Assembly: GCA_021791545.1 (NCBI GenBank)
Contig: JAJYWL010000007.1
Span: 3,972-67,971 of the forward strand
Length of the DNA: 64,000 bases
Direction: 5' to 3'
From: a bacterium
Lineage (GTDB): Bacteria > Patescibacteriota > Microgenomatia > Levybacterales > UBA12049
In this document: in pieces, positions 14,001 through 56,755 of the stretch
How the letters are laid out: each line of letters opens with the position of its first letter
Position numbering within the stretch: position 1 is the first letter of the stretch
Made by a program: the position numbers and the translations under genes
Notes under the pieces: model-generated
What the model was told of the DNA's origin: nothing
Database searches by the model: none
Seen by the model: only the letters and a program-made list of their open reading frames with translations

Positions 14001-17000
14001 CCTCCATTTGTAAGAAGTACACCATTGGAATAGATATTTTGACCATATATGTTTCTCCACTGGTGTGTGGCATCTCCTAAATCTATCTGCTGATTGGTTG
14101 TAGGGGCAACATTTGATCCTGTTCCTCCGGAGGGAGCTATGGCTAGATTTCCTGAGGTAGCTAAAAGTTGGACATTGTTTGTAGTTGCTCCATCATAAAT
14201 TTGGATTCCTCCTGTTCCTCCTCCATAATCGTAGTTAAATCTAACAGCAGAAGTACCTCCGTTTGAAGATATATCCAAGATTCCGGATGCTCCTGTTTTT
14301 TTAATAACCGTATCTCCACTTGAAGCTGTAAAACTTAATCCATTTCCTGTTGTAGTTATAGCTCCGGTTGCATCAACTTGAAAATTGGAAGAAGATCCAA
14401 CGGAAAATAACGCAGCTGAATTGGAATTTCCTATTCCAACATATCCGGAGCTATTAATAGTAAGTCTATCTGTATACGTTTCTGCGCCATAGGCTGTTCC
14501 ATTGGTTCCTTGCTGAATCCTAAAATCAAAATTGCTGCTTGCCAAGTAAAGTCTTGCACCTGTTCCTATTCTATTTCCTGATGTAGTTCTGTAAAGAGTG
14601 ATTGCTGGATTAGCATTGCCCTGAACAGATTCTCCGATTGTTACCAATGAATTAGCTGAAAGAAGAAATTCTGCTGAACTCGATGCAAATGGAGTTACAG
14701 GAGTACTGGCTGAGACAGAATTTTTAAATACAGCTCCGTTTCTTACATCAAGCTGAGCAACTGGATTATTTGTTCCGATACCAACATTGCCAGCAAAATA
14801 GCCTTGTCCGTCTGCTCTCACGCTAAAATTGGTGGTTGAACCAGTTACTCCTTGAAAATAGGTGTTATTAGCACCCGTTAAATTGTCTGTTATTGCCTGG
14901 AATATTCCAGGCGCACCGTAAGAATATCCTGATCCTACTTGGTGTCCTGTAAAAAATACTTGCCCAGTTGTGCCCACTGATGCAACAGCACCGGTTGTAT
15001 TTACGGTAAATTGTCCATTGGAACTGTTGGGACCTACAGTTAAAAGTTGTCCTGGATTTGTTGTTCCTATTCCAACATTTCCTGAACTGGCTTGTATCGT
15101 CATCCAAGTAGACGTGGCATTCATGTTGGTAAATCTTAGATCAGCTCCCGTTCCGGCTCCCATTGCTGCACCTGCGCTTTCGATATAATTTATTCCACCG
15201 CTGGGAACGAATTTAAGTCCACTTAAGACGCTTGCTAGTGTTCCATTATCTCGGATATATTGAGTACCAAAAACATCTAGGTTAACTTGTGGAGCTGCTG
15301 TGCCTATACCAACATTGCCTTCTACAATAAGACCGTTTGAGGGAGGGGTAGTGGTGACATATGTTGATCCAATAGCCTGACTCCCGCTTACTTCCAATAC
15401 AGCTCCAGTATTACTATATGTTGCTCCTGTATTCGATAAAACAAAGCCACGACTAGTTGCTGCATTTAAAGAGACACCTCCCTGATAATTTGCTAGTATA
15501 TATGCATTATTGGCTGTTCCACTATTACGTCCAGTTAGGTTTAATTGAGCGTTTGCGCTTCCTGCTCCTGCGTCAATAGTAAAGGCTCCGGTAGTATGGC
15601 CGGTACCTGTTACGTCAAGAGTATATGCGGGAGTGTTTGTTCCAATTCCAACATTTCCTCCGTATCCATTATTTGGCATTACGATAAGTTGTCCGCTGAA
15701 GCTGGCTTGTGTCTGATGGTTTGCAAGTCCAAGTCCTGTGAATGCAAATTCGGCGGATGCTGTCGAAGATCCTCCTAGTAATAGATCATCTCCTGACTGA
15801 ATAGGGGACAGAGCTCCCGAAAGTTCTTGCCAGTAGTTATAGTTTCCTGTAGAACAGCTTCCCCATGAGGCATTTGCTCCTCCGATAAGACATTGTCCTG
15901 CTCCTGTTGAGGCTCCCAGTGTAATTGCTCCGGAAGTTAAGGTTAATCCGGTAGAGGCTGCTATTGCGCCTGATGAATTAACTTGGAATTGAGCCGAAGA
16001 TCCTACATTAAATAAGGATGTGGCTGTTGTTCCGCCTATTGTAAAGTTACCGTTGGTGGCAACCATATATCGTGGAGGATAGCTGGCTGAGGATGAATCA
16101 AAAACCAACGTTCCCGTGGGGATAGATGTAGAACCAGTTGGATTAGGGTAAACAGTAGCTTGAATAGATTCTGTAATATTATAGGAGATAGACGTATAGC
16201 TGGTTGCTTTGTGGTAAGTATAGACTGAAATTGATCCGTCTGTTTCCTGATAGGCCAGAATCTTAGCTTTACTTCTTACATCTCCAAATAGATCATATTC
16301 ATATTTAAAGCCATTTCTATTACCCATTAAGATATTGAATTGGGATTTTTGATTGCTGCCCCAGCCATCGTCAAGAATTCCGTTAATAACTATATGATCG
16401 TATGTCGCGCTTGTGGAAATTGGTAAAGTTGCTATTTTATAATAAGTGTCGGAAGCAGGATTAACTCCTGTTTGGCTCCAACCCCAAACGGTATTGTTTA
16501 TTTGTGCGCTATTTCCTACTACTTGAAGAGCAGTTTGTGGATTATTGGTTCCTATTCCTAAATTTCCACCAGTTAAATAAGAATTTCCACTGGAGCTAAG
16601 TTGGACAGTAGCGCTTGCTCCTGAATAATCGTTTATGCCCGGGCTTATTAGAAATGCTGAAGCATTAGCAGCGGAGTTGTTAAACTGAACAATTTTACCT
16701 GTTTGATCTAATCTAAAAGATTGATGACTAGTTGTATTGACAACATTGGTAAGATTTATAGTGGTAGCTTGAACCGTACCACTTGTGTTACCGGGTGTGC
16801 CATTCCCGATATTTATATATCCATCTCCTCCCCTTGAGATTCCCGTAGTGACTGATCCTGATCCGTTATCCCAACCAAGTGATCCTCCCGAACTTAAGGT
16901 TAAAAGTTGTCCTGGGTTTGTTGTTCCAATTCCAACATTTCCACTACTATTTATTACCATTGCCGTTCCTGTTCCAAAGGAATTATTATTAACATTAAAT

Positions 17001-19834
17001 TCAATTCCTTTGCCTGTAACCCCCTGAACTACAGTATTAAGGTTGGTTCCGTCGTATCCGAAGTAAGCTCTGGAATTTGCAGACAAATAAGATATATTAG
17101 ATGCACTGTCTACACCTGACGGAGTTAATTTAATAAAAGCATTTCCTGATGTATCTGAGATATCCAATTTTGCACCTGGGCTTGTTGTTCCAATCCCAAC
17201 ATTCCCTCCGTATCCGTTGTTTGGCATTACGATAAGTTGTCCGCTAAAGGAGGCTTGTGTTTGATGGTTAGCAAGTCCAAGTCCTGTAAAAGCAAATTCG
17301 GCAGATGAAGTTGAAGAACCTCCAATTAGCAGATCATCGCTTGAATTGATAGGGGAAAGAGCACCGGTTAATTCTTGCCAGAAATTATAGTTTCCCGTAG
17401 AGCAACTTCCCCAAGAAGGTGCGTAACCTGCTCCTGCTCCTGAAACCAAGCATTGTCCTGAAGTTGAGGTTGTAGCGGATGTCACTACTCCAGTTCCCGT
17501 AGTTGCATAGAGTACTGCGTTATTTCCGGTTATTCCTCCAAGAGTTAATGTTTTTCCGGAGGTAACTGTTGTATTACTATTTAACGTAATTGTTCCTGTT
17601 GAATTTCCGACTGAAACATTTCCCGTATTGGTAGTAGCAAGGTTTAAAGCACCAGTGCCATTAGGGATTATCGATAAATCATCGTTTGAAACAGTACCCA
17701 AAGTTGCTGCAGAGCCATTTCCTAAGTAAAGAGTAGTATTGGTGATGTTATTTCCGCTTATTGTAAGATTTTGCGCCAAGGTTAGACCAGAGCTCATGGA
17801 AAAGTAGCTCCCAGTTGTTTTGGTTATGGTTCCATCGCCAATTTTTATTCCTCCCGTTGTCCCATCGCCAAAAACCGAATTAGATGTTGAGTTTGCGGAT
17901 AAAATTCCTCCTGCAGTCACGTTTCCCGAAGCATCTACTGTAAATTTAGCTACTCCGCTTGCAGATGCACTTATTATCGGTCCTGTTGACCCTTGATTTA
18001 TTGTCACTGCGGATTGTCCGCTTGAAGTAGCAAGGACGGCAAACATGTCATCTACTTCAACTGCTCCCTGAGCGGTAGATATATTGTTATTGTATGAGCT
18101 ATTTTGTAATGGTTTTTGAAGATCAATCTTTCCTAAACCGTCCGGAGAAATAGTAACATTAGCATTTGAACCGACATTAGTGCCAAGCACAAGCGGTTGT
18201 CCTAATAGCTTGAATTGGCCGCCTGTTGCTTGAAATGTGGGAGTGGCGGTGCCTCCAATAGAAAGATTTCCTGAAGAATCCAAGGCCAGGATTACGTTTG
18301 TTGCCGAAGTAGTAGCCGTAGTCGGATACATTCCTTGGAGCGTTTCGGCGTTTGTTGCATACGCAACTGTAGCTAAAGGTTGTCTGGGAGTAAGTTCTGC
18401 AGTTTGTCCTACTGTTACTCCTAGCCACAAAGCGTTATTTTGCGTAAATACTTCCGGTGGAATAACAGAGTTTTGTCCTAAGAGGACATTGAATATTCCG
18501 TCGGTGTCGGGAGATACATAATCCGTCTCCTGCCATTTGAAAATTGTGGTTCCAGAATCCGATGCTGTAGCACTGGTATAAATACCAAAACGCAGCCACG
18601 TGGGGCTGGTGATTGGGTTATCGTTGCTGTCGGTCAGCCTACCCTGAAACGACAGTATTCTCGGTGGAGCCACGGGAGCGGCAGCAAGGATTGGACTTTG
18701 ATTTTTGGGATTATCAAAAAAGCTTGTATAGAATCCAAATCCTATTGCAGCCATTATTATTATCAAAACCGCAAAGTTAAGATAGTGGGCAAGTGGATAG
18801 GAGTGATATGTTTTATACCAGTTTGGTCTTTTATATCTCAGTGCAATCCAATACTTTTTGTAGGAAGGAAGGTTAGCTGTAGATATGGTTAAAGGAGCAT
18901 AGAATTCTTTCTTTATATTTGAGACTTTAAGAAAGTTATGATCCGGGATTTTAGCTTTGATTTCGCTAGATTTCTCCGTGAAAACATGTTTTCCTTTAAC
19001 TTTCCATGCTATATATTCGGCATTCCTTACGCCCTTAGCGAGAGTTTCGGTTATCGCTTTATCGAATATAGCTTGGAAACCTAATCCCATTTTTTGGGCT
19101 ACTCTAAGAGGAGGGAACCAAGAGTAGTTTTTAATTCTAGGTTCCTCAGTTTTTGAAAGTTCTTGTGAAATAGCTTCAGGTTGTGTTGTGAAAAAGGGAG
19201 TTTGATAATTTGTAATTTCAGGCTGTGCTTTTATGAAGCCTTCTTCTTGAGCCCAGGAAAGATATTTCCTTAGAGAAGATAGCTTCCTATTGACCGTGGT
19301 AGCAGAAAAATTATTGTGGGTGATTAACCTCTGTTTGTATTCCTCGATGAGTTCTTTGTTTATTTTCCCTACGGTTGGAAGGTCTGAGTTAGGAGTGACC
19401 GTCTCAGCCCAGGTAAGGAATTGTCGAATATCAATGATATAGTTCTTTATAGTAAGATTCGATGCGTTGAATACATAGAGGTAGTTTTTAAATTCCTTTA
19501 TGTGCCATGGATCTTTAACCTCGACGGGTTGAGGAAGGACAGCTTTGAATGGATCACTAGAGATATATCCTTCAAGCTTAAGAAAGTAGAAGAACTTTCT
19601 AAGTGATGACATGTGCCTATCAAGTGAGCTTTCGGAAAGAACGGAGGCTGATTGTGTTTTATAATTTCGTATTGTTTCAAAGCTTATCTCGGAGGGGGAG
19701 AAAGCTTTCTTGTATTGGTCTTCAAAGAATTTAATGAAATGATTTATGTCCGATAGATAATTTTTTACCGTAACCTTTGAAGGCTGGTTCTTTTGTGATA
19801 ATAAATAATTTTTAAACTGGGCAAGTATATCCAT
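8030..19834 (-). CDS. Giant (3,934 aa) membrane-anchored surface protein. It has an N-terminal cytoplasmic region with two tandem phage-integrase SAM-like (core-binding) domains, a single TM helix, and a ~3,500-aa beta-rich repeat ectodomain.
   Basis: First SAM-like copy: ILAQFKNYLLSQKNQPSKVTVKNYLSDINHFIKFFE...SLDRHMSSLRKFFYFLKLEGYISSDP. Second copy: IKEFKNYLYVFNASNLTIKNYIIDIRQFLTWAE...TVNRKLSSLRKYLSWAQEEGFI. Both match the integrase N-terminal consensus (aflehL...lsenTlraYrrdlrrF..fl...s.rsiarrlsalrsfyryl). TM helix YLNFAVLIIIMAAIGFGFYTSFF. Many fibre-like repeats (GNVGIGTT(N/S)P..(L/V)). Four long internal repeats (CSTGNYN(F/Y)WQEL.GALSP..SGDDLLIGGSSTASAEFAFTGL...SFSGQLIVMPN.GYGG). S/T/N/G-rich. 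Confidence 0.85.
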   Translation of the reverse strand: MDILAQFKNYLLSQKNQPSKVTVKNYLSDINHFIKFFEDQYKKAFSPSEISFETIRNYKTQSASVLSESSLDRHMSSLRKFFYFLKLEGYISSDPFKAVLPQPVEVKDPWHIKEFKNYLYVFNASNLTIKNYIIDIRQFLTWAETVTPNSDLPTVGKINKELIEEYKQRLITHNNFSATTVNRKLSSLRKYLSWAQEEGFIKAQPEITNYQTPFFTTQPEAISQELSKTEEPRIKNYSWFPPLRVAQKMGLGFQAIFDKAITETLAKGVRNAEYIAWKVKGKHVFTEKSSEIKAKIPDHNFLKVSNIKKEFYAPLTISTANLPSYKKYWIALRYKRPNWYKTYHSYPLAHYLNFAVLIIIMAAIGFGFYTSFFDNPKNQSPILAAAPVAPPRILSFQGRLTDSNDNPITSPTWLRFGIYTSATASDSGTTIFKWQETDYVSPDTDGIFNVLLGQNSVIPPEVFTQNNALWLGVTVGQTAELTPRQPLATVAYATNAETLQGMYPTTATTSATNVILALDSSGNLSIGGTATPTFQATGGQFKLLGQPLVLGTNVGSNANVTISPDGLGKIDLQKPLQNSSYNNNISTAQGAVEVDDMFAVLATSSGQSAVTINQGSTGPIISASASGVAKFTVDASGNVTAGGILSANSTSNSVFGDGTTGGIKIGDGTITKTTGSYFSMSSGLTLAQNLTISGNNITNTTLYLGNGSAATLGTVSNDDLSIIPNGTGALNLATTNTGNVSVGNSTGTITLNSNTTVTSGKTLTLGGITGNNAVLYATTGTGVVTSATTSTSGQCLVSGAGAGYAPSWGSCSTGNYNFWQELTGALSPINSSDDLLIGGSSTSSAEFAFTGLGLANHQTQASFSGQLIVMPNNGYGGNVGIGTTSPGAKLDISDTSGNAFIKLTPSGVDSASNISYLSANSRAYFGYDGTNLNTVVQGVTGKGIEFNVNNNSFGTGTAMVINSSGNVGIGTTNPGQLLTLSSGGSLGWDNGSGSVTTGISRGGDGYINIGNGTPGNTSGTVQATTINLTNVVNTTSHQSFRLDQTGKIVQFNNSAANASAFLISPGINDYSGASATVQLSSSGNSYLTGGNLGIGTNNPQTALQVVGNSAQINNTVWGWSQTGVNPASDTYYKIATLPISTSATYDHIVINGILDDGWGSNQKSQFNILMGNRNGFKYEYDLFGDVRSKAKILAYQETDGSISVYTYHKATSYTSISYNITESIQATVYPNPTGSTSIPTGTLVFDSSSASYPPRYMVATNGNFTIGGTTATSLFNVGSSAQFQVNSSGAIAASTGLTLTSGAITLGASTGAGQCLIGGANASWGSCSTGNYNYWQELSGALSPIQSGDDLLLGGSSTASAEFAFTGLGLANHQTQASFSGQLIVMPNNGYGGNVGIGTNTPAYTLDVTGTGHTTGAFTIDAGAGSANAQLNLTGRNSGTANNAYILANYQGGVSLNAATSRGFVLSNTGATYSNTGAVLEVSGSQAIGSTYVTTTPPSNGLIVEGNVGIGTAAPQVNLDVFGTQYIRDNGTLASVLSGLKFVPSGGINYIESAGAAMGAGTGADLRFTNMNATSTWMTIQASSGNVGIGTTNPGQLLTVGPNSSNGQFTVNTTGAVASVGTTGQVFFTGHQVGSGYSYGAPGIFQAITDNLTGANNTYFQGVTGSTTNFSVRADGQGYFAGNVGIGTNNPVAQLDVRNGAVFKNSVSASTPVTPFASSSAEFLLSANSLVTIGESVQGNANPAITLYRTTSGNRIGTGARLYLASSNFDFRIQQGTNGTAYGAETYTDRLTINSSGYVGIGNSNSAALFSVGSSSNFQVDATGAITTTGNGLSFTASSGDTVIKKTGASGILDISSNGGTSAVRFNYDYGGGTGGIQIYDGATTNNVQLLATSGNLAIAPSGGTGSNVAPTTNQQIDLGDATHQWRNIYGQNIYSNGVLLTNGGAGFWQELAGALSPVQPGDDLLIGGSSTASADFAFTGLMGNQTQASFSGQLNIMPNKGYGGGVNSYTGYAFRGTNILSAYGTSNIFVGGFAGNPTASGYNTAVGTSAGTNLSTGTENALLGYQAGVNLGGGTDNVLLGAYAGTVPTVGNNNTIIGAYADMSSNNLNYSLALGYNAIATGSNQAVIGGNTGTSYIQDFYLGNGVTTASPRQVILHASGGSGTNVTGANLTLASGISTGNAAGGNIYFMTSTAGVSGVNPETLSTRLTIDGSGNITMSGTGNFATGTGTVSLNGNTTIPTGKTLTLVNNNGNNAVLYSANSTGLVTSVSSTTTSGQCLLSGSSIPAWGTCPTTYNFWQELSGALSPVQSGDDLLIGGSSTASADFAFTGLMGNQTQASFSGQLIVTPNKGYGGGINVVGNDMNSIIVVENDSSTAPRYPSVEVDNYTGSTTGQSALILQVAKGTKAAPTIATANSDVTTLVGRAYNGTSFKDVGRINFGTDAAFSATDQSGYIGFMVGNGATYTEKMRLDHLGNLGLGISAPLATLDVRGSSATTPIASFSGTTSGPALGIDSNTGAGDLINASSGLSPALGRLQFKVTNLGSIYGRSFTDLDNNSYFLDPAASGTSLTTAGAAGIGTYSITGTTTKLDVAGGIGLFEQGIMSGWTTTTGGGTYTNQYFPIASVSIPAQYGYGTADILISKQGAAGSQSDDNALVHLQVKQQAAFGSPPIVSLQASYLYGIKAANIVFVLTSYAGPTTGTLYVKNPTSYEEYTYTALSASNNITISPTNSASVASLPAGTQTNPTYAFYSYGGNMGIGTDSPASPLHIYGNSSSGITGEIQNTNSAGYAYLLLKSDAAQNMGVFAGGTALASYGGANSLNIFQGNNAPISFLTGGTNQRMVITGTGDVGIGITAPNDLLDVSESSTINVTTPGLATTYGIHLTAPTNVADYANGITFGAGQSSSGNTAQAGIYVQSSGAYGTKMYFATTNSFATGAQTRMMIDHLGNIGVNVTSPTSGYKMDVFGGGGTNGGILIEDSGSNPGAKLLQVGDDSFFTDIDVANTLGLYGNSNSAIASLKLGSGGGTITGSSGNIGIGNTSPAENLSIGNGTANSNWSIGSSSGNRMYMDTYIDAAYLAINRRSSDGAFARSTYGAASIGFVSDTSGGYFDFNTINAVNTNPTLAMRINETHYVGLYGQATGATSNAYLGFYDSGGTRIGYVGDGSTSNSDMYLVADTAGALHLGGNGSSSALNIDNSGFYGNVYMDPSGSAGQWVTVVSSGSVAGQGGLKWTQNSTYWMDTYLTASSATTGKLMFERNGGTSLVSISLTGIIRAAGTITGSTTPDYAETIRIKDQSIDSGDIVAAKDYDNSVKDIYQKALASKTSTPYSPDLIGAISENPGMLINNNFNSDNLWESNERPLTVAGRIPVKVTSKNGPIKVGDLVTSSEIPGVGMKATKAGMVVGTALTDFDPSSATQSARLINGQWQILDSTCTQNEPDCYAYGKILVFIKPGFSDPQVYLTSTGDMSIVDQATTSADFTVPHYYSISDALGNPIDRVGAFAQLAVANLRAGVVNAQQIIVNGQNLGDYIATIVNNIVGQNANGQVVSPIASDSIKTNLIAPTATSSAVALRFENDKLSVLNTNNSSGSAVATIDNQGNASFSGKLTSNQLDTNDASISGTLHVGKIIADQIVSGSSSATYVTNITNVYNSTPSSNTNFGLVNGSSTSTSSGTTNQTQTGTGYMDISSMSGQLSYVPTLSSQTAAFSEGLTVFGPSSLSDVSITGQVAINGSLILANNSINVLGSDFNIQPLKQGGVSIMAGLVYIDTNGNVTFGSDVQVKGTLYANAIAPIPGNDLAINLASPSGKVANLNVTNATGSSILSLNGKSGDLTASGAGTFAKLNLSLIQPAQALSETEITATGSAGTAWIAAHQKEVTIDNSLVTDKSLIYITPTADTKNQVIYLIRQVAGQSFTVGLPDFATSNIPFNWIIVN
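12765..17430 (-). repeat. Four dispersed in-frame direct repeats (~180-230 bp each, ~80-85% nt identity) inside the giant gene.
   Basis: Near-identical DNA blocks at about 12765-12945, 13815-13995, 15650-15900 and 17200-17430. An example shared string is gtccgctaaatga.gcttg.g...tgcaaa.tc.gcagatg...gttcttgcca. Confidence 0.7.
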
Positions 19835-20404: not shown

Positions 20405-21268
20405 ATGTCCAAGACCAGACTGGCCATTCATAAATTAAAAGTAGTTCAAAGAGTGATAGGTATATCTCTTCTTGCGGTATTGTTGCTAAACATTTTTACC
20501 CCCTATGTCTCGGCTCAGTTTAAAGGATCCTTAAATACCTCCGTATCAGGAAGAGTAGGAGAGTTCTTTCTTGATGTTTCCGGATATATCTCTCCTTATG
20601 CTTCGGTTATACTAACATCCGACGGAGTGTTCCTAAGAGCTACCGTAGCGGACTCTAAAGGTAACTTCTATATCTCCCAGGTCCTCATTAACTCCGGCTT
20701 TTCACACTTTTGCTTGGAGGCTGTAGATTACAAGCAGATAGGAAGTTCGGAGACTTGCATGACCATTCCTCCGGCCACAGGCTCTGTAGAGATTAAGAAT
20801 ATATTCCTTCCTCCCACAATAGCAGTACAGAAGAAGGAGATAGCTGAAGGATCTCCCGCGATTGTTTACGGTTACACAATGCCCGGAGCAGAAGTTAAGC
20901 TATTTCTTTCAAATAAACAGACTATTACGACAACAGCCGATGAAACTGGTTTCTATAGATTTGAGATAAATAACCTCAAGGCGGGGACATATAGCTTATA
21001 TGCAAAGGCATATTATAAGGACAAGGAATCGCTGACTCCGGCTAAGAAGATTGAACTTAAAAGTCTCTCTTGGTGGGAGCAAATTATTGCTTTTATCAAG
21101 GATCTGCTAAGTAAAATCTGGCTTTATCTTACATCTTTGTCTTTAGGACCACTTTGGCTTGCTATACCAATCATTATCCTCATTATTATACTGATTTTTA
21201 AGTTATTACCCAGAGGCATTGTACGTCCCAAGGAACATCTCCATCATTATTGGATGGTACATGAATAA
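20405..21268 (+). CDS. Surface protein with a signal peptide, Ig-like/CarboxypepD_reg-like beta domains and a C-terminal TM anchor.
   Basis: N-terminal signal (LLAVLLLNIFTPYVSAQ). Segment ADETGFYRFEINNLKAGTYSLYAKA. C-terminal TM LWLAIPIIILIIILIF followed by a basic tail. Confidence 0.5.
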   Translation: MSKTRLAIHKLKVVQRVIGISLLAVLLLNIFTPYVSAQFKGSLNTSVSGRVGEFFLDVSGYISPYASVILTSDGVFLRATVADSKGNFYISQVLINSGFSHFCLEAVDYKQIGSSETCMTIPPATGSVEIKNIFLPPTIAVQKKEIAEGSPAIVYGYTMPGAEVKLFLSNKQTITTTADETGFYRFEINNLKAGTYSLYAKAYYKDKESLTPAKKIELKSLSWWEQIIAFIKDLLSKIWLYLTSLSLGPLWLAIPIIILIIILIFKLLPRGIVRPKEHLHHYWMVHE

Positions 21269-21390: not shown

Positions 21391-22377
21391 TTACTCAGCA
21401 GGTGTATGGTATTCATGGAGAACACCGGGGTTTTGAACTTTTGGTCCTTCTTCTTTCTTTCCGCCTCTTCTACTTCTCTTTCTCAAGTAGAGGATAAGAA
21501 GGATTACGGCTATTACGATTAAGACTGCGAGTGTTGTAAGTTTCCATGGGAATACCCAGAAGGAAACTGTTGCTGAAAGCGGCTGAACGCTGTTAAATCC
21601 ATATGTTCCGGAAAGAACGGCAGTGTACTTTCCGAACATGAATTGCTGTCCTACGAAGTTCTCATAGTCTCTGGCTGCACCGGGAAATACATCATGCTGG
21701 GGAAGAGTATATGTTTGATTAAAGAAAGGTCCTGTTACTGTTATTTTTGCATTAGGTCTTGTATGAATATCTCCATAGTTTCTTATCTGCGTCATTATCT
21801 TAACGGGTCCGTATTCCTGGAATGATTTTGCAAGGAAATTGGTTATGCTTGCTTTTTCAAGTACTGGGCCTTTAACGATAAGTTTAAAGATTGTTCCGAG
21901 TTGTGAATTTACAGTGCTTCCTGTGCCTTTATCTGCTGTTTTGACTTCAGGTGTATATACAACTGCTGCGTAATGTCCTCCCGGTCTTGCGTTAGCAGGA
22001 ACTTGGATGTAGTAGTTTAGATCCTGTCTTTGATGGGGTTGTACGGTAAATTCGCTTGGGTAGACGGCTATCCAGGATGCACCGGAATATTTTGATTCTA
22101 TTGTTCCTAGTGGAAGAAGTTGGGGAGTGCCAAGACTATCTGTAACTATGAAATCTTCAACTGCTGCTTTGAAAGTAAGGGGAGCATCTGTATCATTTGT
22201 AATTCTTGTTACTCCTTCGCTTTTCTCTCCGGGATTAAGGGAAGCTTCAACTACAGGGTAGGTAAGTGTGACTGTTCTTTGGACTTCCTGTGCTAAGGCG
22301 ACTCCGCCAAGAAGGGTAACTCCTAATATTGCGGTTCCTAATATTAATTTTTTATGTTTAATGTTGGGCAGTTTCAT
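21391..22377 (-). CDS. DUF916-like cell-surface protein with a signal peptide and a C-terminal TM anchor plus basic tail (module B anchor).
   Basis: Signal peptide. TYPVVEASLNPGEKSEGVTRITNDTD...YYIQVPA pattern. C-terminus FWVFPWKLTTLAVLIVIAVILLILYLRKRSRRGGKK. Paralog of 23892..24911. Confidence 0.5.
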   Translation of the reverse strand: MKLPNIKHKKLILGTAILGVTLLGGVALAQEVQRTVTLTYPVVEASLNPGEKSEGVTRITNDTDAPLTFKAAVEDFIVTDSLGTPQLLPLGTIESKYSGASWIAVYPSEFTVQPHQRQDLNYYIQVPANARPGGHYAAVVYTPEVKTADKGTGSTVNSQLGTIFKLIVKGPVLEKASITNFLAKSFQEYGPVKIMTQIRNYGDIHTRPNAKITVTGPFFNQTYTLPQHDVFPGAARDYENFVGQQFMFGKYTAVLSGTYGFNSVQPLSATVSFWVFPWKLTTLAVLIVIAVILLILYLRKRSRRGGKKEEGPKVQNPGVLHEYHTPAE

Positions 22378-22381
22378 ATTT

Positions 22382-23827
22382 TTAGAACGTAGCCGTTGCT
22401 ACATACGTCATTGTTGTCGTGTAAACACCCGGAGGTGTTGTTCCCGTTACTTCGGCTCCATATCTTACTACTGTTTTTGCTGCGCTTACAGGCCCTCCCG
22501 TATTGGAAGCAATTGTTGCGTAATATGAGTTTGTTCCAGTATTCCATGGGTTTGCAGTTTTTGCGCTTCCGGCTGCCATTGATGTTGCTCCTGCTCCCCA
22601 TACGGCTGTGGGTATATCTGCTCCACAAGGGCTTATTCCAAAGAATGCAGTTCCGTTTGCGGGGATTGTCCATGGCGCAGGAGTGTCAACAGCCGTCAGC
22701 CCGTTATTTCCTCCGTTGACAATGTTATCTGTAAGATAGAAGCCTGAAGCAGGATTAATAAACTTGCCTGAAGAAGTTGCCGTGATTACATATCCTGCTG
22801 CTCCGTTTGTTGTTACTGTTAAGAGTTGTCCTGCTTTATTGGGTCCAGTTGGAGTAAGAAGTCCTAAGTTTACAAAGGTTGCAGTAGAATCGATTCCACT
22901 ATTTGATGTTTCAGAAGTGCAGCTTGAAGAACCGGAAATTGTATTGTAATTGTCTGTATTAAGTAATCCTGCAATCGTAAAAGTAAGGGATGGTTCAACT
23001 GTTGCTTGAACTTGTACAGATTCAATGGTTGCTATTTTTGCAGATCCTGTATCTAAATCAATCCCGTTATTATCCTGGGTTTTCATTTGAACTTTCCAAG
23101 AATCGTTTGTCCCTGCAGTTGCTGTTTTTGTCGGATTAATAAGTGCTGGAGTTGTATTTCCTATTACTATCGTAATGGTGGAAGCAGCCGGTATCGTGGC
23201 AGTTGCTACTGTGCAAGTAATATTTGGCGTGGTAGTACCAACATTTACAACCCAAGTACATGTAGAAGAACCGGGAAGAGTAGCGCTAATGTTAGCAGTC
23301 TGAAGATTATTAAACTCGAAGCCGGTAGCCGATGGGGAAGCCAGATTGGAGCTTGCTAGGTCGGTGATGGTTGGATAAGTTATGATTATTTTTCCATTTA
23401 CAGGAATTGCAGCGACCGTTGTAAATTTGATGGTATGTTTTGCAGTTACTGCTGTTTGGATAACTGCTCCTATGCTATGGCCGTTTGTTACGGTATTTGT
23501 GAAATATAGGTATCTAAAGTTGGGGGTGCCCGATTGTTGAGCAGACATTGATGCTACATTTAAGCCGGCTTGGAAACCAGGCGTCATTATTGTTGCCGAG
23601 TCTGATGCAATCCATTGTGCAGTTGTTCCCGTAGTATCTGCTACCTGAACAAATGTTGCCCCGGTGGTTTGATTAGCTGTTAAGTATGAAGAGGCCGATG
23701 GTCTTGAAGTGGTAACTGTGTCCGTGACGCTGGAAAGTGAGGCTGCATCTACTGTATTAACTGAAAAAACTCCAAAAAGGAGGATAAGGGATAACAAATA
23801 AAAACTTCGCTTAACTATAATTCCCAT
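22382..23827 (-). CDS. Secreted T/S-rich beta-rich protein, candidate fibre or surface subunit (module B).
   Basis: Signal peptide, 481 aa. The C-terminal strand GVYTTTMTYVATATF is shared with the 24892..25620 protein (GLYTNVINFIATPTY). Confidence 0.5.
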   Translation of the reverse strand: MGIIVKRSFYLLSLILLFGVFSVNTVDAASLSSVTDTVTTSRPSASSYLTANQTTGATFVQVADTTGTTAQWIASDSATIMTPGFQAGLNVASMSAQQSGTPNFRYLYFTNTVTNGHSIGAVIQTAVTAKHTIKFTTVAAIPVNGKIIITYPTITDLASSNLASPSATGFEFNNLQTANISATLPGSSTCTWVVNVGTTTPNITCTVATATIPAASTITIVIGNTTPALINPTKTATAGTNDSWKVQMKTQDNNGIDLDTGSAKIATIESVQVQATVEPSLTFTIAGLLNTDNYNTISGSSSCTSETSNSGIDSTATFVNLGLLTPTGPNKAGQLLTVTTNGAAGYVITATSSGKFINPASGFYLTDNIVNGGNNGLTAVDTPAPWTIPANGTAFFGISPCGADIPTAVWGAGATSMAAGSAKTANPWNTGTNSYYATIASNTGGPVSAAKTVVRYGAEVTGTTPPGVYTTTMTYVATATF

Positions 23828-23891
23828 CTATATACTATTATATGGGTTATTTTTATATACTTGTCAATATATCAGTTTAGGTCATTTAGCC

Positions 23892-24911
23892 TCAAAATTC
23901 GGGAAGTTTTTTCTTAACACGAAGAATTATGAAAATAGCTATAAGAATTACTGCAAATATTACCGCTAAAGCCTCTAACGGGAAGGCAAAGAAATATGCA
24001 TTTCTCACATAAACAGGTCCGCTATCAGATAGTGAAAGAGTTAAAGTTGCTGTATAGGGACCCAAGAGGAATGTCTCCGGCCAGACTGCAACAGGATAAT
24101 AATTTGCAAGAACGACATCTTTAATCTGTCCGAATTCTTTCTCTTTGTCGGGAGATTGGAGGCTGTCCGGTATCCTTCTTGTCGTGCCGGCAAGTATATT
24201 TACTGGCAATAAATCTACTTTTCCTATTGTCTGTCCAAATATGTTTTTAATAGTGATGTCTCCTTTGGGAGTAATAAAGTGGGAAGATGTGTTTTTTACT
24301 CTTACTGTAAAGGGGACGGGACCTTTTTCAACGAAAAACGGAGCGCTGAAGTCAGAAATCACTCCTTCTGTTTTACCTTTTTGTCCTATCGATAAAAGAA
24401 CATTAGAAGCAATTGCTCCGGTTGCCTGGGAACCGTTAAGTTGGACATTGTCTCTGGCTTTAGAAATAAAGAGGATAGAGAAGTAATAATCCGAAGAAGT
24501 TTCTTCTTTTGGAATTTGGATATGTAGTACAAGATTTTTCTTTTGTTTTGGTGCAAGGGTTATGCTACTGACAGAATTTTCTCCGTCCAAGATTTCCATC
24601 TTTTCAAAAATGTAGGGATCTTCATAAGTACTTAAATCTTGCTGATAAGAGACTTCACCGTTTTCACGATCTCCGGCAGTAAAGGGTTTTACTGCAATAT
24701 CAAGGTCTATAGAGTCCTTGTCCGAGAGGTTTTGAACAAAAAAATTCGTTCTGATATCCGAAGGTGGATTAGCCGTGATTTGAAAAACAGGAGGGTAGAC
24801 TCCGACGTTTACGTCCTGTGCAAACGATTTTTGGGCAAAATTGTGAAAAATTAACGGTAGTAATAAAGCGATTAAAAATAATTTTTTCATTTTAGTATGT
24901 TGGTGTTGCAA
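23892..24911 (-). CDS. DUF916-like cell-surface protein with a signal peptide and a C-terminal TM anchor (module A anchor).
   Basis: VGVYPPVFQITANPPSDIRTNFFVQNLSDKDS...YYFSILF. C-terminus YFFAFPLEALAVIFAVILIAIFIILRVKKK. Confidence 0.5.
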   Translation of the reverse strand: MQHQHTKMKKLFLIALLLPLIFHNFAQKSFAQDVNVGVYPPVFQITANPPSDIRTNFFVQNLSDKDSIDLDIAVKPFTAGDRENGEVSYQQDLSTYEDPYIFEKMEILDGENSVSSITLAPKQKKNLVLHIQIPKEETSSDYYFSILFISKARDNVQLNGSQATGAIASNVLLSIGQKGKTEGVISDFSAPFFVEKGPVPFTVRVKNTSSHFITPKGDITIKNIFGQTIGKVDLLPVNILAGTTRRIPDSLQSPDKEKEFGQIKDVVLANYYPVAVWPETFLLGPYTATLTLSLSDSGPVYVRNAYFFAFPLEALAVIFAVILIAIFIILRVKKKLPEF

Positions 24912-25620
24912 TAAAATTGATTACATTGGTGTAAAGTCCTGCCGCTTGTACAGCAGAAACATTTAGCTTATATGTTATTGTTGCTTGTCTATTTCTTCCG
25001 ACATTTGAAGAACTCATTACTGTTACTGCAGAAGGGGAAGCGGCAAAAGGTCTGAAGTATGTGGAGTTTACAAAGTCAGTTGAACAATCTGTTCCGCTAA
25101 CGTTGGTGCAGTTATAACCAAATCCGAAAGTTCCCGGCAAAGTCCATGCTCTTGCGGTAGTTGTCGTACATGTGCCCGAGTCGCATGTAGTATCGGGTAT
25201 ATCTATTCCTTTTGCATTAAGTCTTAGAGGATGGTTTTCGGATGCAGTTACTATGTAGCCACCGGCAGATCCGTTCGAAACTGTTAATGTACTTGTTCTG
25301 GTTACGGCATTTGTTGCAAAGACAGGACCGAAGTCAATATTTAGCCCTGTTATCTTAAAGGAGAAGGGAATAATGGACATTATATATTGGAAACCTCCCC
25401 TTACTCTGTAATTTACTCCGGTTAAGCTATAAAAACCGTTAGCAGTCTGTCCTGCGGTAAAGCCTAAGGCATAACCTGAGCCTGTCGGATGGCCGGAAGA
25501 CATATTGAGATTTCCCATCCTTATGATATAAAAGCCGTTAGACATAGTCTGAGCCTTAACAATAGAGGCTGTAAGAAGTATTAGAAGAGTTGTGAAAAGG
25601 ACAGCCAGGAAATATTTCAT
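24892..25620 (-). CDS. Secreted beta-rich protein, candidate fibre or surface subunit (module A).
   Basis: Signal peptide, 242 aa. The C-terminal strand motif matches the 22382..23827 protein. Confidence 0.5.
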   Translation of the reverse strand: MKYFLAVLFTTLLILLTASIVKAQTMSNGFYIIRMGNLNMSSGHPTGSGYALGFTAGQTANGFYSLTGVNYRVRGGFQYIMSIIPFSFKITGLNIDFGPVFATNAVTRTSTLTVSNGSAGGYIVTASENHPLRLNAKGIDIPDTTCDSGTCTTTTARAWTLPGTFGFGYNCTNVSGTDCSTDFVNSTYFRPFAASPSAVTVMSSSNVGRNRQATITYKLNVSAVQAAGLYTNVINFIATPTY

Positions 25621-26255
25621 AGATTATTTGAACTTTCTCTTCTTAGATCTTCGGTTTCTTCCAAGACTTCATTGAGTTTTTCCATATCTTCTGGTCTTAG
25701 GTTCTGTTTTTCTTCTTTTATCACTCTATCTATATCTTTTGCGATTGTGTCTGCAGCTTCTTGGGTTCTTTCTTCAAGTTCTTCAATTTTTTCTTCTTCC
25801 TGGTCTCTTAATCTATATTCCTTTCCGAAAAAGTAGGCAAGGGGTCCGATCAAGACAAGGCTTAAAAGTTTTAGAAGATTGACTGTAAAGTCTCCCTGAG
25901 AAAGAGAAGGAACAAAAACAAGGAAAGCACCCAATATGAAAATAAAAACGGAGGCGGGTTCAAATACAAAAGCTATTCCGAAAGAAAGGAAGTATAGGAG
26001 GAAGAAGACGGACGATGAGATATTTCCGGTTGAGAATATAACTAAAAGTATAATCGAGGATAGAAGAAATATTCCAAAAGGATTTCCTCCCATCGTAAGG
26101 AAGCCTTTGCCTCTGTTTCTCAAGGAGATAAAAAGATAGAGGACAATAAAGATTGCAAGAAGTTGGACATTTATGGCTGAAAGTGGAGTTTGTTGCCATG
26201 CAAAGACAAGGATAAAGGAAGTAAGGAGTACAAGGCAGTGTTCTAAAAGCTTCAT
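25617..26255 (-). CDS. Integral membrane protein with an acidic coiled-coil C-terminus. First gene of the surface-module operon.
   Basis: About 5 TM helices, then an EEEKIEELEERTQEAAD... tail. Overlaps the next gene by 4 nt. Confidence 0.45.
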   Translation of the reverse strand: MKLLEHCLVLLTSFILVFAWQQTPLSAINVQLLAIFIVLYLFISLRNRGKGFLTMGGNPFGIFLLSSIILLVIFSTGNISSSVFFLLYFLSFGIAFVFEPASVFIFILGAFLVFVPSLSQGDFTVNLLKLLSLVLIGPLAYFFGKEYRLRDQEEEKIEELEERTQEAADTIAKDIDRVIKEEKQNLRPEDMEKLNEVLEETEDLRRESSNNL

Positions 26256-26261
26256 ATAGTT

Positions 26262-28632: not shown

Positions 28633-29220
28633 ATGGATACAGAACAGCTAAAGGAAAGATATTTGCCTCTTTTAAAAAGGAATTGGATTCCTTTGCTTCT
28701 TGGTTTGATAGGTTTATTGCTTCTAAGTTATGGTTTGATATCTTTATTGTCTTCAAACGAGAAAGATACGGTCGTAATAGAAAAATCTGAAGATAATAAT
28801 GTTTCTTCAAAGATAAAAGTAGATGTTGAGGGTGCAGTTGTGAAGCCGGGAGTATATGAATTGGATAATACGGCAAGAATACAAGACGCCTTAATAGCAG
28901 CGGGAGGCTTCTCAGCCTCAGCGGATAGGACTATTGTATCTAAAAAACTGAATTTAGCTTCAAGACTTGTTGACGGATCCAAGATATATATTCCTCAGAA
29001 AGGGGAGGAGACGATATTGACATCATCCGGCTCGGTGGAAGGGACTATAAATATAAATAGTGCAACAGCAGAACAGCTCGATACTCTTTCGGGTATAGGA
29101 CCTACAACCGCAGAAAAGATTATAAATCTGAGACCTTATTCTTCGCTTGAGGATTTGGTGACAAAAAAAGCAGTAAGTCAGAAAGTATTTGATAGCATTA
29201 AAGACAAGATAAGTCTTTAA
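28633..29220 (+). CDS. comEA: ComEA (SLBB domain plus helix-hairpin-helix DNA-binding domain).
   Basis: N-terminal TM. VDVEGAVVKPGVYEL (SLBB). NINSATAEQLDTLSGIGPTTAEKIINLRP (HhH). Confidence 0.85.
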   Translation: MDTEQLKERYLPLLKRNWIPLLLGLIGLLLLSYGLISLLSSNEKDTVVIEKSEDNNVSSKIKVDVEGAVVKPGVYELDNTARIQDALIAAGGFSASADRTIVSKKLNLASRLVDGSKIYIPQKGEETILTSSGSVEGTININSATAEQLDTLSGIGPTTAEKIINLRPYSSLEDLVTKKAVSQKVFDSIKDKISL

Positions 29221-29224
29221 ATTT

Positions 29225-50825: not shown

Positions 50826-53341
<2,516 letters not shown>

Positions 53342-53345
<4 letters not shown>

Positions 53346-55244: not shown

Positions 55245-56755
<1,511 letters not shown>

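What the first reader, a model, noticed from the sequence alone, without database searches (positions are those of the whole stretch)
21391..26255. Operon with a duplicated two-gene cell-surface module (secreted beta-rich subunit + C-terminally TM-anchored DUF916-like protein)
There are five co-directional genes: a membrane protein with an acidic coiled-coil, then twice the pair of a secreted signal-peptide protein ending in a conserved strand G(V/L)YT.....(Y/F)(V/I)AT.T(F/Y), followed by a DUF916-like protein whose C-terminus has F..FP......AV..AVIL plus a basic tail. The organisation resembles WxL/DUF916 surface-complex loci of Firmicutes but lacks recognisable WxL motifs. It probably encodes an uncharacterised envelope fibre, S-layer-like or adhesin assembly. 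The conserved C-terminal strand could be a donor strand or anchoring signal.
Basis: partly seen in the sequence, partly recalled or inferred. Interest (0 to 1): 0.55.

Follow-up and report, generated by a model that had tools for sequence, protein, structure and literature searches.

The report
Pam-type pilus operon of Levybacteria
This operon very probably builds a thin surface filament (a "Pam" pilus, first described in 2026 in another ultrasmall bacterium) from secreted subunits helped by membrane-anchored chaperones, and those chaperones belong to a protein family so far known from gut Firmicutes.

Summary
Five co-directional minus-strand genes (21391-26255) encode a 6-TM protein with an acidic tail, then twice a secreted beta-rich protein followed by a two-Ig-domain protein with a C-terminal TM anchor. 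Paralogy of both pairs is significant at family level (hhalign 98% and 100%).

The locus is best read as a Levybacteria version of the Pam pilus system of CPR bacteria (Troman et al., bioRxiv 2026).
- B1 (242 aa) matches the PamT tip-pilin model over its full length.
- B2 (481 aa) carries the Pam pilin C-terminal domain after a conserved linker strand.
- C1 and C2 are PapD/FimC-like chaperones with a TM anchor.

A sixth gene outside the reported span (R, 20405-21268, +) is constantly syntenic and fits the PamR tether by architecture only.

All Pam matches fall below NCBIfam's curated cut-offs, so this is a distant member. C1 passes Pfam's threshold for DUF916 (WxLIP_PGBD), and its best solved-structure match is E. 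faecium WxLIP. Six tests found no WxL domain in B1 or B2.

The conserved C-terminal strand is more likely part of the strand-acceptor domain than the donor strand.

Verdict: a new member of a recently described kind, of moderate interest.

The parts
25617..26255 (-). A: polytopic membrane protein (about 6 TM, N-in/C-in by the positive-inside rule) with a cytoplasmic acidic coiled-coil-like tail. It is the first gene of the cassette and its role is unknown.
   Evidence: ORF. TM segments. Tail has 24 D/E and 12 K/R in 67 aa. No significant Pfam or NCBIfam family. It is the conserved first gene in about 45 loci.
24892..25620 (-). B1: small secreted subunit and distant PamT (tip/initiator pilin) homologue. 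It has a signal peptide, a Gly/Asn-rich conserved N-terminal part, and a Pam pilin C-terminal domain (residues 92-242, nt 24895-25347) with 4 Cys, of which C146 and C151 are nearly invariant and a Cys is the majority residue at the other two positions.
   Evidence: NF058579 PamT E 1.6e-8 over 4-242 vs model 5-241/241, and NF058581 E 7e-8. 19/19 family members match both models, best 3.6e-13. Scores are below the curated cut-offs (34 vs 240; 33 vs 55).
23892..24890 (-). C1: two-Ig-domain protein with signal peptide and C-terminal TM helix (nt 23907-23978) plus a basic tail. It is a membrane-anchored PapD/FimC-like chaperone of the DUF916/WxLIP family and is paired with B1.
   Evidence: PF06030 E 4.8e-7, 30.3 bits > 27.3, with 61/61 family members matching. 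AF2 model has pLDDT 92.6. Foldseek PDB top hit is 9i1y_A WxLIP at E 4e-11, then RbmA, CsuC, CfaA, Caf1M, FimC and PapD at 1e-8 to 1e-6. C1 occurs in loci only where B1 occurs.
22382..23827 (-). B2: large secreted subunit and PamA-like shaft pilin. It has a signal peptide, an N-terminal beta-sandwich region (about 28-270), a hinge, a conserved linker strand TVEPSLTFTIAG (residues 276-287, nt 22967-23002), and a Pam pilin C-terminal domain (316-481, nt 22385-22882).
   Evidence: NF058581 E 3.7e-9 over 316-481 vs model 3-148/148. 64/65 family members match, best 2e-10. AF2 model has pLDDT 81.7 and pTM 0.56, with the hinge at 273-275 below 50 and block 281-290 at 96. Conservation is 0.77 for the linker, 0.70 for the CTD and 0.60 for the NTD. 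More than 376 homologues were found.
21391..22377 (-). C2: full-length paralogue of C1 with signal peptide, two Ig-like domains, a C-terminal TM helix (nt 21484-21540) and a basic tail. It is the chaperone paired with B2-type pilins.
   Evidence: hhalign C1 vs C2 100%, E 1e-38, 285 columns. PF06030 E 0.011 here, with 12/20 family members matching, best 2.4e-5. C2 always follows B2, including in secondary loci that lack A/B1/C1.
20405..21268 (+). R: signal peptide, two tandem Ig-like (CarboxypepD_reg/Big-type) domains and a C-terminal TM helix (nt 21152-21208).
   Evidence: Pfam Ig-like hits. The family profile hits Bap Ig repeats 7dm0 at E 2e-9. It is adjacent to the cassette in nearly all loci, and co-directional and immediately upstream of B2-C2 in about 15 secondary loci. 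Its size of 287 aa compares with 32.8 kDa for PamR. The fold was not modelled.
8030..19834 (-). Giant 3934-aa membrane/surface protein that is constantly syntenic with the cassette. Whether it belongs to the system is uncertain.
   Evidence: ORF. The only family hits are two N-terminal Phage_int_SAM domains. It is present next to R in most loci. The Pam preprint mentions a co-localised 'tail fibre-like protein', but equivalence was not shown.
22385..22429 (-). Conserved C-terminal strand of B2 (GVYTTTMTYVATATF). The B1 counterpart GLYTNVINFIATPTY lies at nt 24895-24939.
   Evidence: Sequence. G467 and Y469 are invariant and T464, P465, V476 and T478 nearly invariant in 65 sequences. It lies inside the NF058581 match. 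AF2 places a strand at 473-479.

Best explanation
The locus encodes a Pam-type pilus of a Levybacteria (Microgenomatia, CPR) bacterium. This is a usher-less, chaperone-assisted, donor-strand-exchange filament of a cell without an outer membrane.

Proposed steps:
1. All components are exported by Sec. The signal peptides are shown; the route is inferred.
2. C1 and C2 stay in the cytoplasmic membrane through their C-terminal helix. Their two Ig-like domains form a PapD-like clamp outside the cell. The fold and anchor are shown by prediction.
3. Each chaperone caps the open C-terminal domain of its cognate subunit, C1 with B1 and C2 with B2. The pairing is inferred from synteny.
4. B1, a single-domain PamT-like protein, starts the fibre at the distal tip.
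5. B2 subunits are then added. The conserved linker strand (residues 276-287) of each incoming B2 replaces the chaperone strand in the C-terminal domain of the previous subunit. This is inferred by homology to PamA/PamB.
6. R, a two-Ig protein with a C-terminal TM helix, ends growth and tethers the fibre to the membrane. This is inferred from architecture and synteny only.
7. The role of A is unknown.

That would be analogous to the conserved C-terminal F strand of chaperone-usher pilins. This comparison rests on my own knowledge and was not tested.
For: Sequence links to the Pam system:
- B1 matches NF058579 PamT end to end (E 1.6e-8), and 19/19 relatives match it (best 3.6e-13).
- B1 and B2 match the full NF058581 Pam pilin C-terminal domain, with 64/65 B2 relatives matching.
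- B1 and the B2 C-terminal domain are homologous (hhalign 98%, E 2e-13).

B2 model:
- An N-terminal beta region is followed by a low-confidence hinge (273-275), a very confident strand (281-287), a loop with one short helix (294-298), and the C-terminal domain.
- The low pTM (0.56) against pLDDT 81.7 fits two modules joined by a hinge.
- The linker and C-terminal domain are the most conserved parts. The scan tool picked the linker as one of the three most conserved stretches. The Pam paper reports the same pattern for PamA/PamB.

Chaperone model (C1):
- pLDDT is 92.6.
- It matches the chaperone-usher chaperones CsuC, CfaA, Caf1M, FimC, PapD, SafB and DraB at probability 1.00, with target TM-scores of 0.45-0.56.
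- It carries a C-terminal TM helix, as described for PamC/PamD.

Other support:
- Conserved or mostly conserved cysteines occur in B1 and B2, in line with the paired cysteines reported for PamA/PamB.
- The order A-B1-C1-B2-C2, with R and the giant protein alongside, is conserved across Levybacteria, Shapirobacteria, Collierbacteria and unnamed Patescibacteria. Secondary R-B2-C2(-B2) loci resemble extra shaft-pilin sets.
- Sizes agree: B1 is 242 aa vs 25.6 kDa for PamT, and R is 287 aa vs 32.8 kDa for PamR.
Against: - All Pam model scores are far below NCBIfam's curated cut-offs (34 vs 240; 33-37 vs 55), so the relation is distant.
- C1, C2 and R have no sequence match to any Pam-named model. 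I could not obtain the M. amalyticus PamC/D/R sequences for a direct comparison.
- No filament, polymerisation or chaperone-subunit complex was modelled or observed here.
- B1 also contains a linker-like segment (IPFSFKITG, 84-92) just before its C-terminal domain, whereas PamT is described as lacking a linker strand.
- A has no described counterpart in the Pam paper.
Confidence: 0.68

Rival explanations
1. A non-filamentous WxL/Csc-type cell-surface complex. Each membrane-anchored DUF916/WxLIP-like protein (C1, C2) permanently holds one secreted partner (B1, B2) at the cell surface by completing its beta-sandwich. This presents the B2 N-terminal region as an adhesin, and no polymer forms.
For: - C1 passes Pfam's threshold for WxLIP_PGBD, and 61/61 relatives match it.
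- The best solved-structure hits are WxLIP alone and WxLIP bound to long WxL (9i1y, 9i25).
- There is one anchor gene per secreted-protein gene.
- The pattern of small protein, large protein and DUF916-TM protein, and their sizes (242, 481 and 328-332 aa), mirror CscB, CscC and CscA.
- In WxL clusters, an AlphaFold-predicted WxLIP strand completes the WxL sandwich.
Against: - B1 and B2 have no detectable WxL domain: Pfam scans, reverse NCBIfam scan of WxL proteins, hhalign against narrow and broad WxL profiles at under 3%, and no WxL chain among the top structure matches.
- They do match the Pam pilin domain, for which filaments were solved by cryo-EM.
- The linker strand is strongly conserved, which a static 1:1 complex does not explain.
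- Extra B2 copies occur without extra C2 in several loci.
- DUF3324 was not detected by Pfam.
Confidence: 0.2
2. An S-layer or other envelope lattice. B2 would be an abundant surface-layer protein, with C1, C2 and R as membrane anchors.
Against: No S-layer family or SLH-type domain was found. The specific significant matches are to pilin (Pam) and chaperone-like folds. The paired subunit/chaperone gene logic and the tip-like single-domain B1 have no role in a lattice model.
Confidence: 0.06
3. A sortase-dependent or TasA/SipW-type Gram-positive fibre.
Against: No LPXTG-like motif occurs in any cassette protein. No sortase or SipW-like gene lies among the cassette genes. The hits are no better than many unrelated beta-sandwiches.
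Confidence: 0.03

Closest known systems
Pam pilus system of Candidatus Mycosynbacter amalyticus (Saccharimonadia); Troman et al., bioRxiv 10.64898/2026.03.03.709456; NCBIfam NF058579 (PamT) and NF058581 (Pam pilin C-terminal domain)
   Same: - Found in a CPR host.
- All parts are Sec-secreted.
- A single-domain tip-like subunit of about 241 aa.
[quoted passage not shown]
- Two paralogous PapD-like chaperones with a C-terminal TM helix.
- A two-Ig-domain, TM-anchored candidate tether.
- No usher and no sortase.
- Cysteines in the subunits.
   Different: - Sequence similarity is far below NCBIfam's curated cut-offs.
- The gene order and set differ: here A-B1-C1-B2-C2 with R divergent, and only one shaft pilin in this locus, against PamA, PamB and PamE.
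- An extra conserved 6-TM gene (A) is present.
- The chaperones carry a recognisable DUF916 domain, a link the Pam paper does not mention (0 occurrences of WxL or DUF916).
- The ATP synthase operon lies 27 kb away, not adjacent.
WxL / Csc cell-surface clusters of Firmicutes (CscA = WxLIP, DUF916-DUF3324-TM; CscB small WxL; CscC large WxL); PDB 9i1y, 9i25
   Same: - C1 meets the PF06030 threshold, and its model is closest to E. faecium WxLIP.
- The architecture of signal peptide, two Ig-like domains and C-terminal TM matches, as does the size (328-332 aa vs 320-380 aa).
- The cluster logic of a small secreted protein plus a large secreted protein sharing a domain at the extreme C-terminus matches.
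- In WxL clusters a WxLIP strand is predicted to complete the partner's sandwich.
- There is a motif-level resemblance only: LTVTTNGAAGYVITA vs LTVTDATGSGNGWRINV, and Y-x3-hydrophobic-T-aromatic in the same 13-residue register to the C-terminus.
   Different: - No WxL domain is detectable in B1 or B2 by HMMER, hhalign or the structure-search lists.
- DUF3324 is not detected by sequence.
- There is no LPXTG CscD protein.
- The host is CPR, not Firmicutes.
- WxL proteins are thought to bind peptidoglycan as non-polymeric complexes.
Chaperone-usher pili of Gram-negative bacteria (Pap, Fim, Caf1, Csu, CFA/I)
   Same: The predicted chaperone fold matches (Foldseek probability 1.00 to CsuC, CfaA, Caf1M, FimC and PapD). 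The presumed mechanism of donor-strand complementation and exchange is shared, as is a conserved strand at the subunit C-terminus.
   Different: - There is no outer membrane and no usher.
- The chaperones are membrane-anchored, not soluble.
- The donated strand is an inter-domain linker, not an N-terminal extension.
- The subunits have two domains.
- There is no detectable sequence similarity.

Membership tests
Pam pilus system (CPR) | Subunits carry the Pam pilin C-terminal domain (NF058581) | tested here: met
   B2 E 3.7e-9 (316-481 vs model 3-148/148) and B1 E 7e-8. 64/65 B2 relatives and 19/19 B1 relatives match. Caveat: scores of 33-37 bits are below the curated cut-off of 55, so NCBI's pipeline would not name them.
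Pam pilus system (CPR) | Single-domain tip pilin PamT (NF058579 equivalog) | tested here: inconclusive
   There is a full-length, significant alignment (4-242 vs 5-241/241, E 1.6e-8; family best 3.6e-13). The score is 34 bits against an equivalog cut-off of 240, so B1 is a distant homologue and not an equivalog. B1 also has a linker-like segment that PamT is said to lack.
Pam pilus system (CPR) | Shaft pilin built as N-terminal beta-sandwich + linker strand + open C-terminal Ig-like domain | tested here: met
   The AF2 model shows beta strands at 32-267, a hinge at 273-275 with pLDDT below 50, a strand at 281-287 at about 96, and a C-terminal beta domain. The linker and C-terminal domain are the most conserved parts. 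This is a prediction, and coordinates could not be superposed on PamA/B.
Pam pilus system (CPR) | PapD/FimC-like chaperones with a C-terminal TM helix (PamC, PamD) | tested here: met
   C1 model has pLDDT 92.6. Foldseek matches to chaperone-usher chaperones have probability 1.00. TM helices were found in C1 and C2. C2 is a full-length paralogue. There was no direct sequence comparison with PamC/D.
Pam pilus system (CPR) | RbmA-like, TM-anchored tether PamR | tested here: inconclusive
   R has a signal peptide, two Ig-like domains and a C-terminal TM, with a matching size and tight synteny. Its fold was not modelled, and its mature N-terminal strand is only weakly conserved.
Pam pilus system (CPR) | Assembly into helical filaments by donor-strand exchange | not testable with these tools
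   This needs multimer modelling, cryo-EM/ET or proteomics.
WxL / Csc cluster (Firmicutes) | DUF916 (PF06030, WxLIP_PGBD) protein with C-terminal TM anchor | tested here: met
   C1 scores 30.3 bits > 27.3. 61/61 C1 relatives and 12/20 C2 relatives match. The top PDB fold hit is WxLIP 9i1y_A at E 4e-11.
WxL / Csc cluster (Firmicutes) | DUF3324 second domain | tested here: inconclusive
   DUF3324 is not among the Pfam families reported for C1, C2 or their relatives. The Foldseek alignment to WxLIP nevertheless spans 293-304 columns, that is, both domains.
WxL / Csc cluster (Firmicutes) | At least two secreted proteins with a C-terminal WxL domain (PF13731) | tested here: not met
Chaperone-usher pili | Outer-membrane usher | tested here: not met
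   None of the cassette proteins or R matches an usher family. CPR cells lack an outer membrane (established knowledge).
Sortase-dependent pili | LPXTG sorting signal on subunits and a pilin sortase | tested here: not met
   There is no LPXTG-like motif in A, B1, C1, B2, C2, R or the giant protein. No sortase hit occurs among the cassette genes.

The most novel reading that the evidence does not exclude
Pam pili of CPR bacteria and the WxL/Csc surface clusters of Firmicutes may be two branches of one ancient system for cells without an outer membrane. In this system a membrane-anchored DUF916-type chaperone completes, and then hands over, an open C-terminal beta-domain of small and large secreted subunits.

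If so:
- Pam components would not be exclusive to CPR.
- The enigmatic WxL proteins of enterococci, listeriae and lactobacilli might be assembled, and perhaps polymerised, by donor-strand exchange.

The chaperone half of this link is supported here. The subunit half rests only on shared architecture, size, position at the extreme C-terminus and short motif resemblance, and it failed every statistical test I could run.
Probability: 0.25. Interest if true: 0.75.

Novelty: new member of a known kind. Interest (0 to 1): 0.42.

Why it matters
CPR bacteria are thought to depend on attachment to host cells, and how they attach is largely unknown outside Saccharibacteria. This locus shows that a compact, clearly organised Pam-type pilus cassette is a conserved core-genome feature of Levybacteria and neighbouring Microgenomatia. 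The cassette comprises a tip subunit with its own chaperone, a shaft subunit with its own chaperone, a tether and a 6-TM partner. In these lineages current curated models (NCBIfam cut-offs) do not annotate it.

The locus also gives a testable bridge between two literatures that do not cite each other. The Pam-type chaperones here are members of the DUF916/WxLIP family studied in enterococcal, listerial and lactobacillar surface clusters. If that bridge holds for the subunits too, it would change how WxL proteins are understood.

Tried and rejected
1. WxL homology of the B1/B2 C-terminal domain. I fetched a genuine WxL cluster from pXO1 and collected 29 and then 150 WxL representatives. I ran hhalign with narrow and broad profiles, trimmed domains, global mode and column-shuffle controls (one search timed out). 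I also ran Pfam and NCBIfam cross-scans. Nothing was significant. The best local alignments did fall on the motif I had noticed by eye, but at P of about 0.2. Global mode gave degenerate end alignments and was uninformative.

2. Sequence search of PDB with the B2 protein, and with the B2, C1 and R family profiles. There was no Pam, WxL or WxLIP chain by sequence. There was one odd weak hit (9j1k_M).

4. tblastn of C1 against plasmids found nothing relevant.

5. R as a paralogue of C1/C2, or R carrying a conserved donor strand. hhalign gave about 20% only, and the N-terminal motif is poorly conserved. Both ideas were dropped.

6. The giant neighbour as the 'tail fibre-like protein' of the Pam paper. 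There were no tail-fibre hits in Pfam or PHROGs, so this was left open.

7. Promoter and terminator scan. Counts did not exceed those of shuffled sequence, so no operon boundaries could be drawn from it.

8. I could not obtain the M. amalyticus Pam protein sequences.

Full report
**1. What is there**

Five ORFs lie head to tail on the minus strand between 21391 and 26255:

| Gene | Coordinates | Length |
|---|---|---|
| A | 25617-26255 | 212 aa |
| B1 | 24892-25620 | 242 aa |
| C1 | 23892-24890 | 332 aa |
| B2 | 22382-23827 | 481 aa |
| C2 | 21391-22377 | 328 aa |

- The mechanical C1 ORF starts at a TTG at 24911. Independent gene calls on identical metagenome contigs use the ATG at 24890.
- Spacing is operon-like, with a 4-nt overlap, an abutment, a 64-nt gap and a 4-nt gap.
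- A simple hydropathy scan finds about six TM segments in A, followed by a tail with 24 D/E in 67 residues.
- B1, B2, C1 and C2 have signal-peptide-like N-termini.
- C1 and C2 each have one strong C-terminal TM segment plus a basic tail.
- The surrounding genes are housekeeping: Rho, LeuRS, ComEA/ComEC, ArgRS, MreB and an F-type ATP synthase operon at 51-57 kb.

**2. Is the duplication real?**

- Pairwise BLASTP is clear for C1/C2 (E 3e-11) but marginal for B1/B2 (E 0.004).
- With family alignments built from related loci, hhalign gives:
  - C1 vs C2 100%, E 1e-38, over 285 columns;
  - B1 vs the C-terminal part of B2 98%, E 2e-13, over 149 columns.
- Family HMMs searched against every ORF of the window hit only the partner paralogue, apart from one marginal C2-HMM hit at 50548-50850(-) (E 0.0015, 11.2 bits).

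**3. Conservation and extent**

- B2 has more than 376 relatives in public data, and C1 more than 439.
- A scan of species-representative genomes returned 74 loci.
  - Those with informative titles are Levybacteria, Shapirobacteria, Collierbacteria or 'Patescibacteria group'.
  - Many bulk-deposited MAGs carry 'uncultured Gammaproteobacteria' or 'Pseudomonadales' titles; I take these to be placeholder names (my judgement, not tested).
- I classified the ORFs of all loci with the window proteins. This shows one dominant arrangement: LeuRS(-) | A B1 C1 B2 C2 (+) | R(-) | giant protein(+).
  - It is kept down to 27% identity of B2.
- About 15 loci are a second type, R B2 C2 (B2), all co-directional and without A, B1 or C1.
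- Some primary loci carry one or two extra B2 genes.
- Three conclusions follow:
  - R (window 20405-21268, +) belongs to the system although it lies outside the reported span.
  - C1 travels with B1, and C2 travels with B2.
  - B2 is the component that is multiplied, as expected of a shaft subunit.
- The window itself is most likely from a Levybacteria genome. This is an inference from best hits and synteny.

**4. What the parts are**

NCBIfam gives the decisive lead:
- B1 aligns end to end with NF058579, 'CPR-type pilus protein PamT' (E 1.6e-8).
- Both B1 and B2 align over the whole of NF058581, 'Pam pilus system pilin subunit' C-terminal domain (E 7e-8 and 3.7e-9).
- This holds for 19/19 B1 relatives (best 3.6e-13) and 64/65 B2 relatives (best 2e-10).
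- All scores are well below the curated cut-offs, so these are distant homologues that the NCBI pipeline would leave unnamed.

The Pam system was described in a 2026 preprint (10.64898/2026.03.03.709456):
- Cryo-EM of filaments of the saccharibacterium Ca. Mycosynbacter amalyticus showed two pilins, PamA and PamB. Each has an N-terminal beta-sandwich, a single linker strand and an open C-terminal Ig-like domain.
- The linker of one subunit fills the C-terminal domain of its neighbour.
- From AlphaFold models, the operon was also proposed to encode:
  - PamT, a single-domain tip pilin;
  - PamC and PamD, PapD/FimC-like chaperones that unusually keep a C-terminal TM helix;
  - PamR, a two-FnIII, RbmA-like protein with a C-terminal TM helix, proposed as terminator and tether.
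- Homologues in Microgenomatia were reported only through language-model searches.

**5. Structure predictions**

B2, modelled with 65 relatives:
- pLDDT is 81.7 and pTM 0.56.
- It has a strand-rich N-terminal region (32-267) and a hinge with pLDDT below 50 at 273-275.
- A very confident strand follows at 281-287, then a segment with one short helix, then a C-terminal beta domain ending in strands 447-459 and 473-479.
- The segment TVEPSLTFTIAG (276-287) is one of the eight most conserved 12-residue stretches.
- Mean conservation is 0.77 for the linker, 0.70 for the C-terminal domain and 0.60 for the N-terminal region. The paper reports the same pattern for PamA/PamB.
- No Pam structure is in the PDB copy by sequence.

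C1, modelled with 61 relatives:
- The model is very confident, with pLDDT 92.6 and pTM 0.82.
- It consists of a signal peptide, two beta-sandwich domains and a long C-terminal helix.

Its Foldseek matches in the PDB are, in order:
1. WxLIP of Enterococcus faecium, alone and bound to a 'long WxL' protein (9i1y, 9i25; E 4e-11 to 1e-9).
2. RbmA.
3. A long series of chaperone-usher chaperones (CsuC, CfaA, Caf1M, FimC, PapD, SafB, DraB, CupB2). All have probability 1.00 and target-normalised TM-scores of 0.45-0.56.

**6. The DUF916 / WxL question**

  - C1 passes Pfam's gathering score for PF06030 (WxLIP_PGBD, formerly DUF916), and all 61 relatives match.
  - 12 of 20 C2 relatives match below threshold.
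- The literature on Firmicutes (PMC1534035, PMC9772566, PMC10599100) describes clusters made of:
  - a small WxL protein of about 240 aa that is almost only a WxL domain;
  - a large protein with a C-terminal WxL domain;
  - a 320-380-aa DUF916-DUF3324 protein with a C-terminal TM helix.
- AlphaFold predicts that a WxLIP strand fills a gap in the WxL sandwich. That is the same logic as in this locus.
- The Pam preprint does not mention WxL, DUF916 or DUF3324.

I then tested whether B1 and B2 carry a diverged WxL domain.
- By eye there are parallels with a genuine WxL cluster from pXO1:
  - LTVTTNGAAGYVITA against LTVTDATGSGNGWRINV;
  - GVYTTTMTYVATATF-end against ATYTSTVTWSLVSGP-end, in the same 13-residue register.
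  - Many accepted WxL proteins have Y or F instead of W.
- Every statistical test failed:
  - no PF13731 hit at E up to 10;
  - no Pam hit in WxL proteins;
  - hhalign below 3% with profiles of 19 and of 148 WxL sequences, no better than unrelated controls;
  - no WxL chain among the top structural matches.
- So the chaperone link is supported, and the subunit link is not.

**7. Mechanism**

The best-supported reading is a usher-less, chaperone-assisted donor-strand pilus.

Shown here:
- export signals, membrane anchors and the predicted chaperone fold;
- significant homology of both subunits to Pam pilin models;
- the two-module architecture with a conserved linker;
- pairing by synteny.

Inferred by homology:
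- C1 and C2 cap the open C-terminal domains of B1 and B2.
- B1 nucleates the tip.
- B2 polymerises by linker-strand exchange.
- R tethers the fibre.

Further points:
- The conserved C-terminal strand lies inside the acceptor domain. I therefore read it as the edge strand that pairs with the incoming strand, like the conserved C-terminal F strand of chaperone-usher pilins. This is my own knowledge and was not tested.
- A is a 6-TM protein with a cytoplasmic acidic tail. It has no assigned role and no described Pam counterpart.

**8. Rivals**

- **Static WxL-like surface complex.** Each anchor protein would hold one secreted partner without polymerisation.
  - This is the main rival. It is favoured by the WxLIP match and the 1:1 gene pairing.
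  - It is disfavoured by the Pam pilin domain, the conserved linker and the extra B2 copies without extra C2.
- **S-layer, sortase-pilus and TasA-type readings** have only weak, non-specific support. No LPXTG motif exists in any component.

**9. Novelty**

- The kind of system is already described, both in the preprint and in the NCBIfam models of June 2026.
- This is a distant, lineage-specific member with a very regular cassette.
- The new elements are:
  - the tidy subunit-chaperone pairing;
  - the constant partners A, R and the giant protein;
  - the assignment of the chaperones to the DUF916/WxLIP family.
- Interest is moderate. It would be high only if the Pam and WxL systems prove to be homologous as wholes.

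Noticed in passing
window 8030-19834 (-): A 3934-aa protein begins with two phage-integrase SAM-like domains (PF02899 E 4e-20, PF13495). A hydrophobic segment follows at about residue 360, then a huge Gly/Ser/Thr/Asn-rich region. A module of about 65 residues (…AFTGL…QTQASFSGQL…MPN.GYGG…) recurs at least four times in that region. The protein sits next to the pilus cassette in most related genomes. A cytoplasmic DNA-binding-type domain fused to a giant surface protein is odd.
   Followed up: partly
L024, L028, L029, L032, L034, L037, L041, L042, L044, L045, L047, L048, L052, L059, L060 (around position 8000 of each): A second locus type, R-B2-C2(-B2), is all co-directional and lacks A, B1 and C1. 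One genome (PLZJ01000002.1) has three B2 loci (L040, L046, L056). This suggests several shaft-pilin sets per cell that share one tip/initiator set.
   Followed up: partly
L079 27943-31664 (B. anthracis pXO1, record 77943-81664): pXO1 carries a WxL cluster of small WxL, DUF916-DUF3324 and a large WxL gene. The large gene is split into two ORFs (29735-31483 and 31380-31664), apparently by a frameshift, and is missing from the PLSDB gene table. In this Bacillus-type family, one or both 'W' positions of the WxL motifs are often Y or F.
   Followed up: partly
window 26255-26310: The start codons of A (26255, -) and of the LeuRS ORF (26262, +) are only 6 nt apart. The LeuRS start is probably the internal Met at about 26310 (MDEAKKKERYF…). 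That still leaves a very short divergent promoter region, and the consensus promoter scan found nothing above chance.
   Followed up: no
B2 residues 287-355 (window about 22763-22969): The B2 family profile weakly hits a 99-residue PDB chain, 9j1k_M, labelled 'CCA-adding enzyme' (E 0.006). The aligned chain segment looks like a fibre or tail-like repeat and not an enzyme. This is unexplained and possibly a chance match.
   Followed up: no
B1 family (alignment A5): 5 of 19 B1 relatives weakly match PF21426, the Ig-like domain of the streptococcal tip pilin GBS104 (best E 0.0032). This is suggestive for a tip role but below any threshold.
   Followed up: no
window 28633-31304 (+) and 51077-56725 (-): ComEA (SLBB + HhH) and ComEC (Competence + metallo-beta-lactamase) lie just beyond LeuRS. 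An F-type ATP synthase operon lies about 27 kb from B2. The Pam preprint reports ATP synthase genes as recurrent neighbours of pam operons.
   Followed up: partly
window 23866-23895 (-): A promoter-like site (TTGAGG-18-TATATT with an upstream TG) sits in the 64-nt gap before B2. It could give the shaft-pilin gene its own promoter. Site counts in the region do not exceed those of shuffled sequence.
   Followed up: no
window 56898-59060 (+) and 45757-46980 (-): A 720-aa protein has only an N-terminal MerR-type HTH domain recognised. A 407-aa PEGA-domain protein is also present. Two further ORFs of 356-387 aa (40624-41787 and 43042-44112) have no Pfam match.
   Followed up: no
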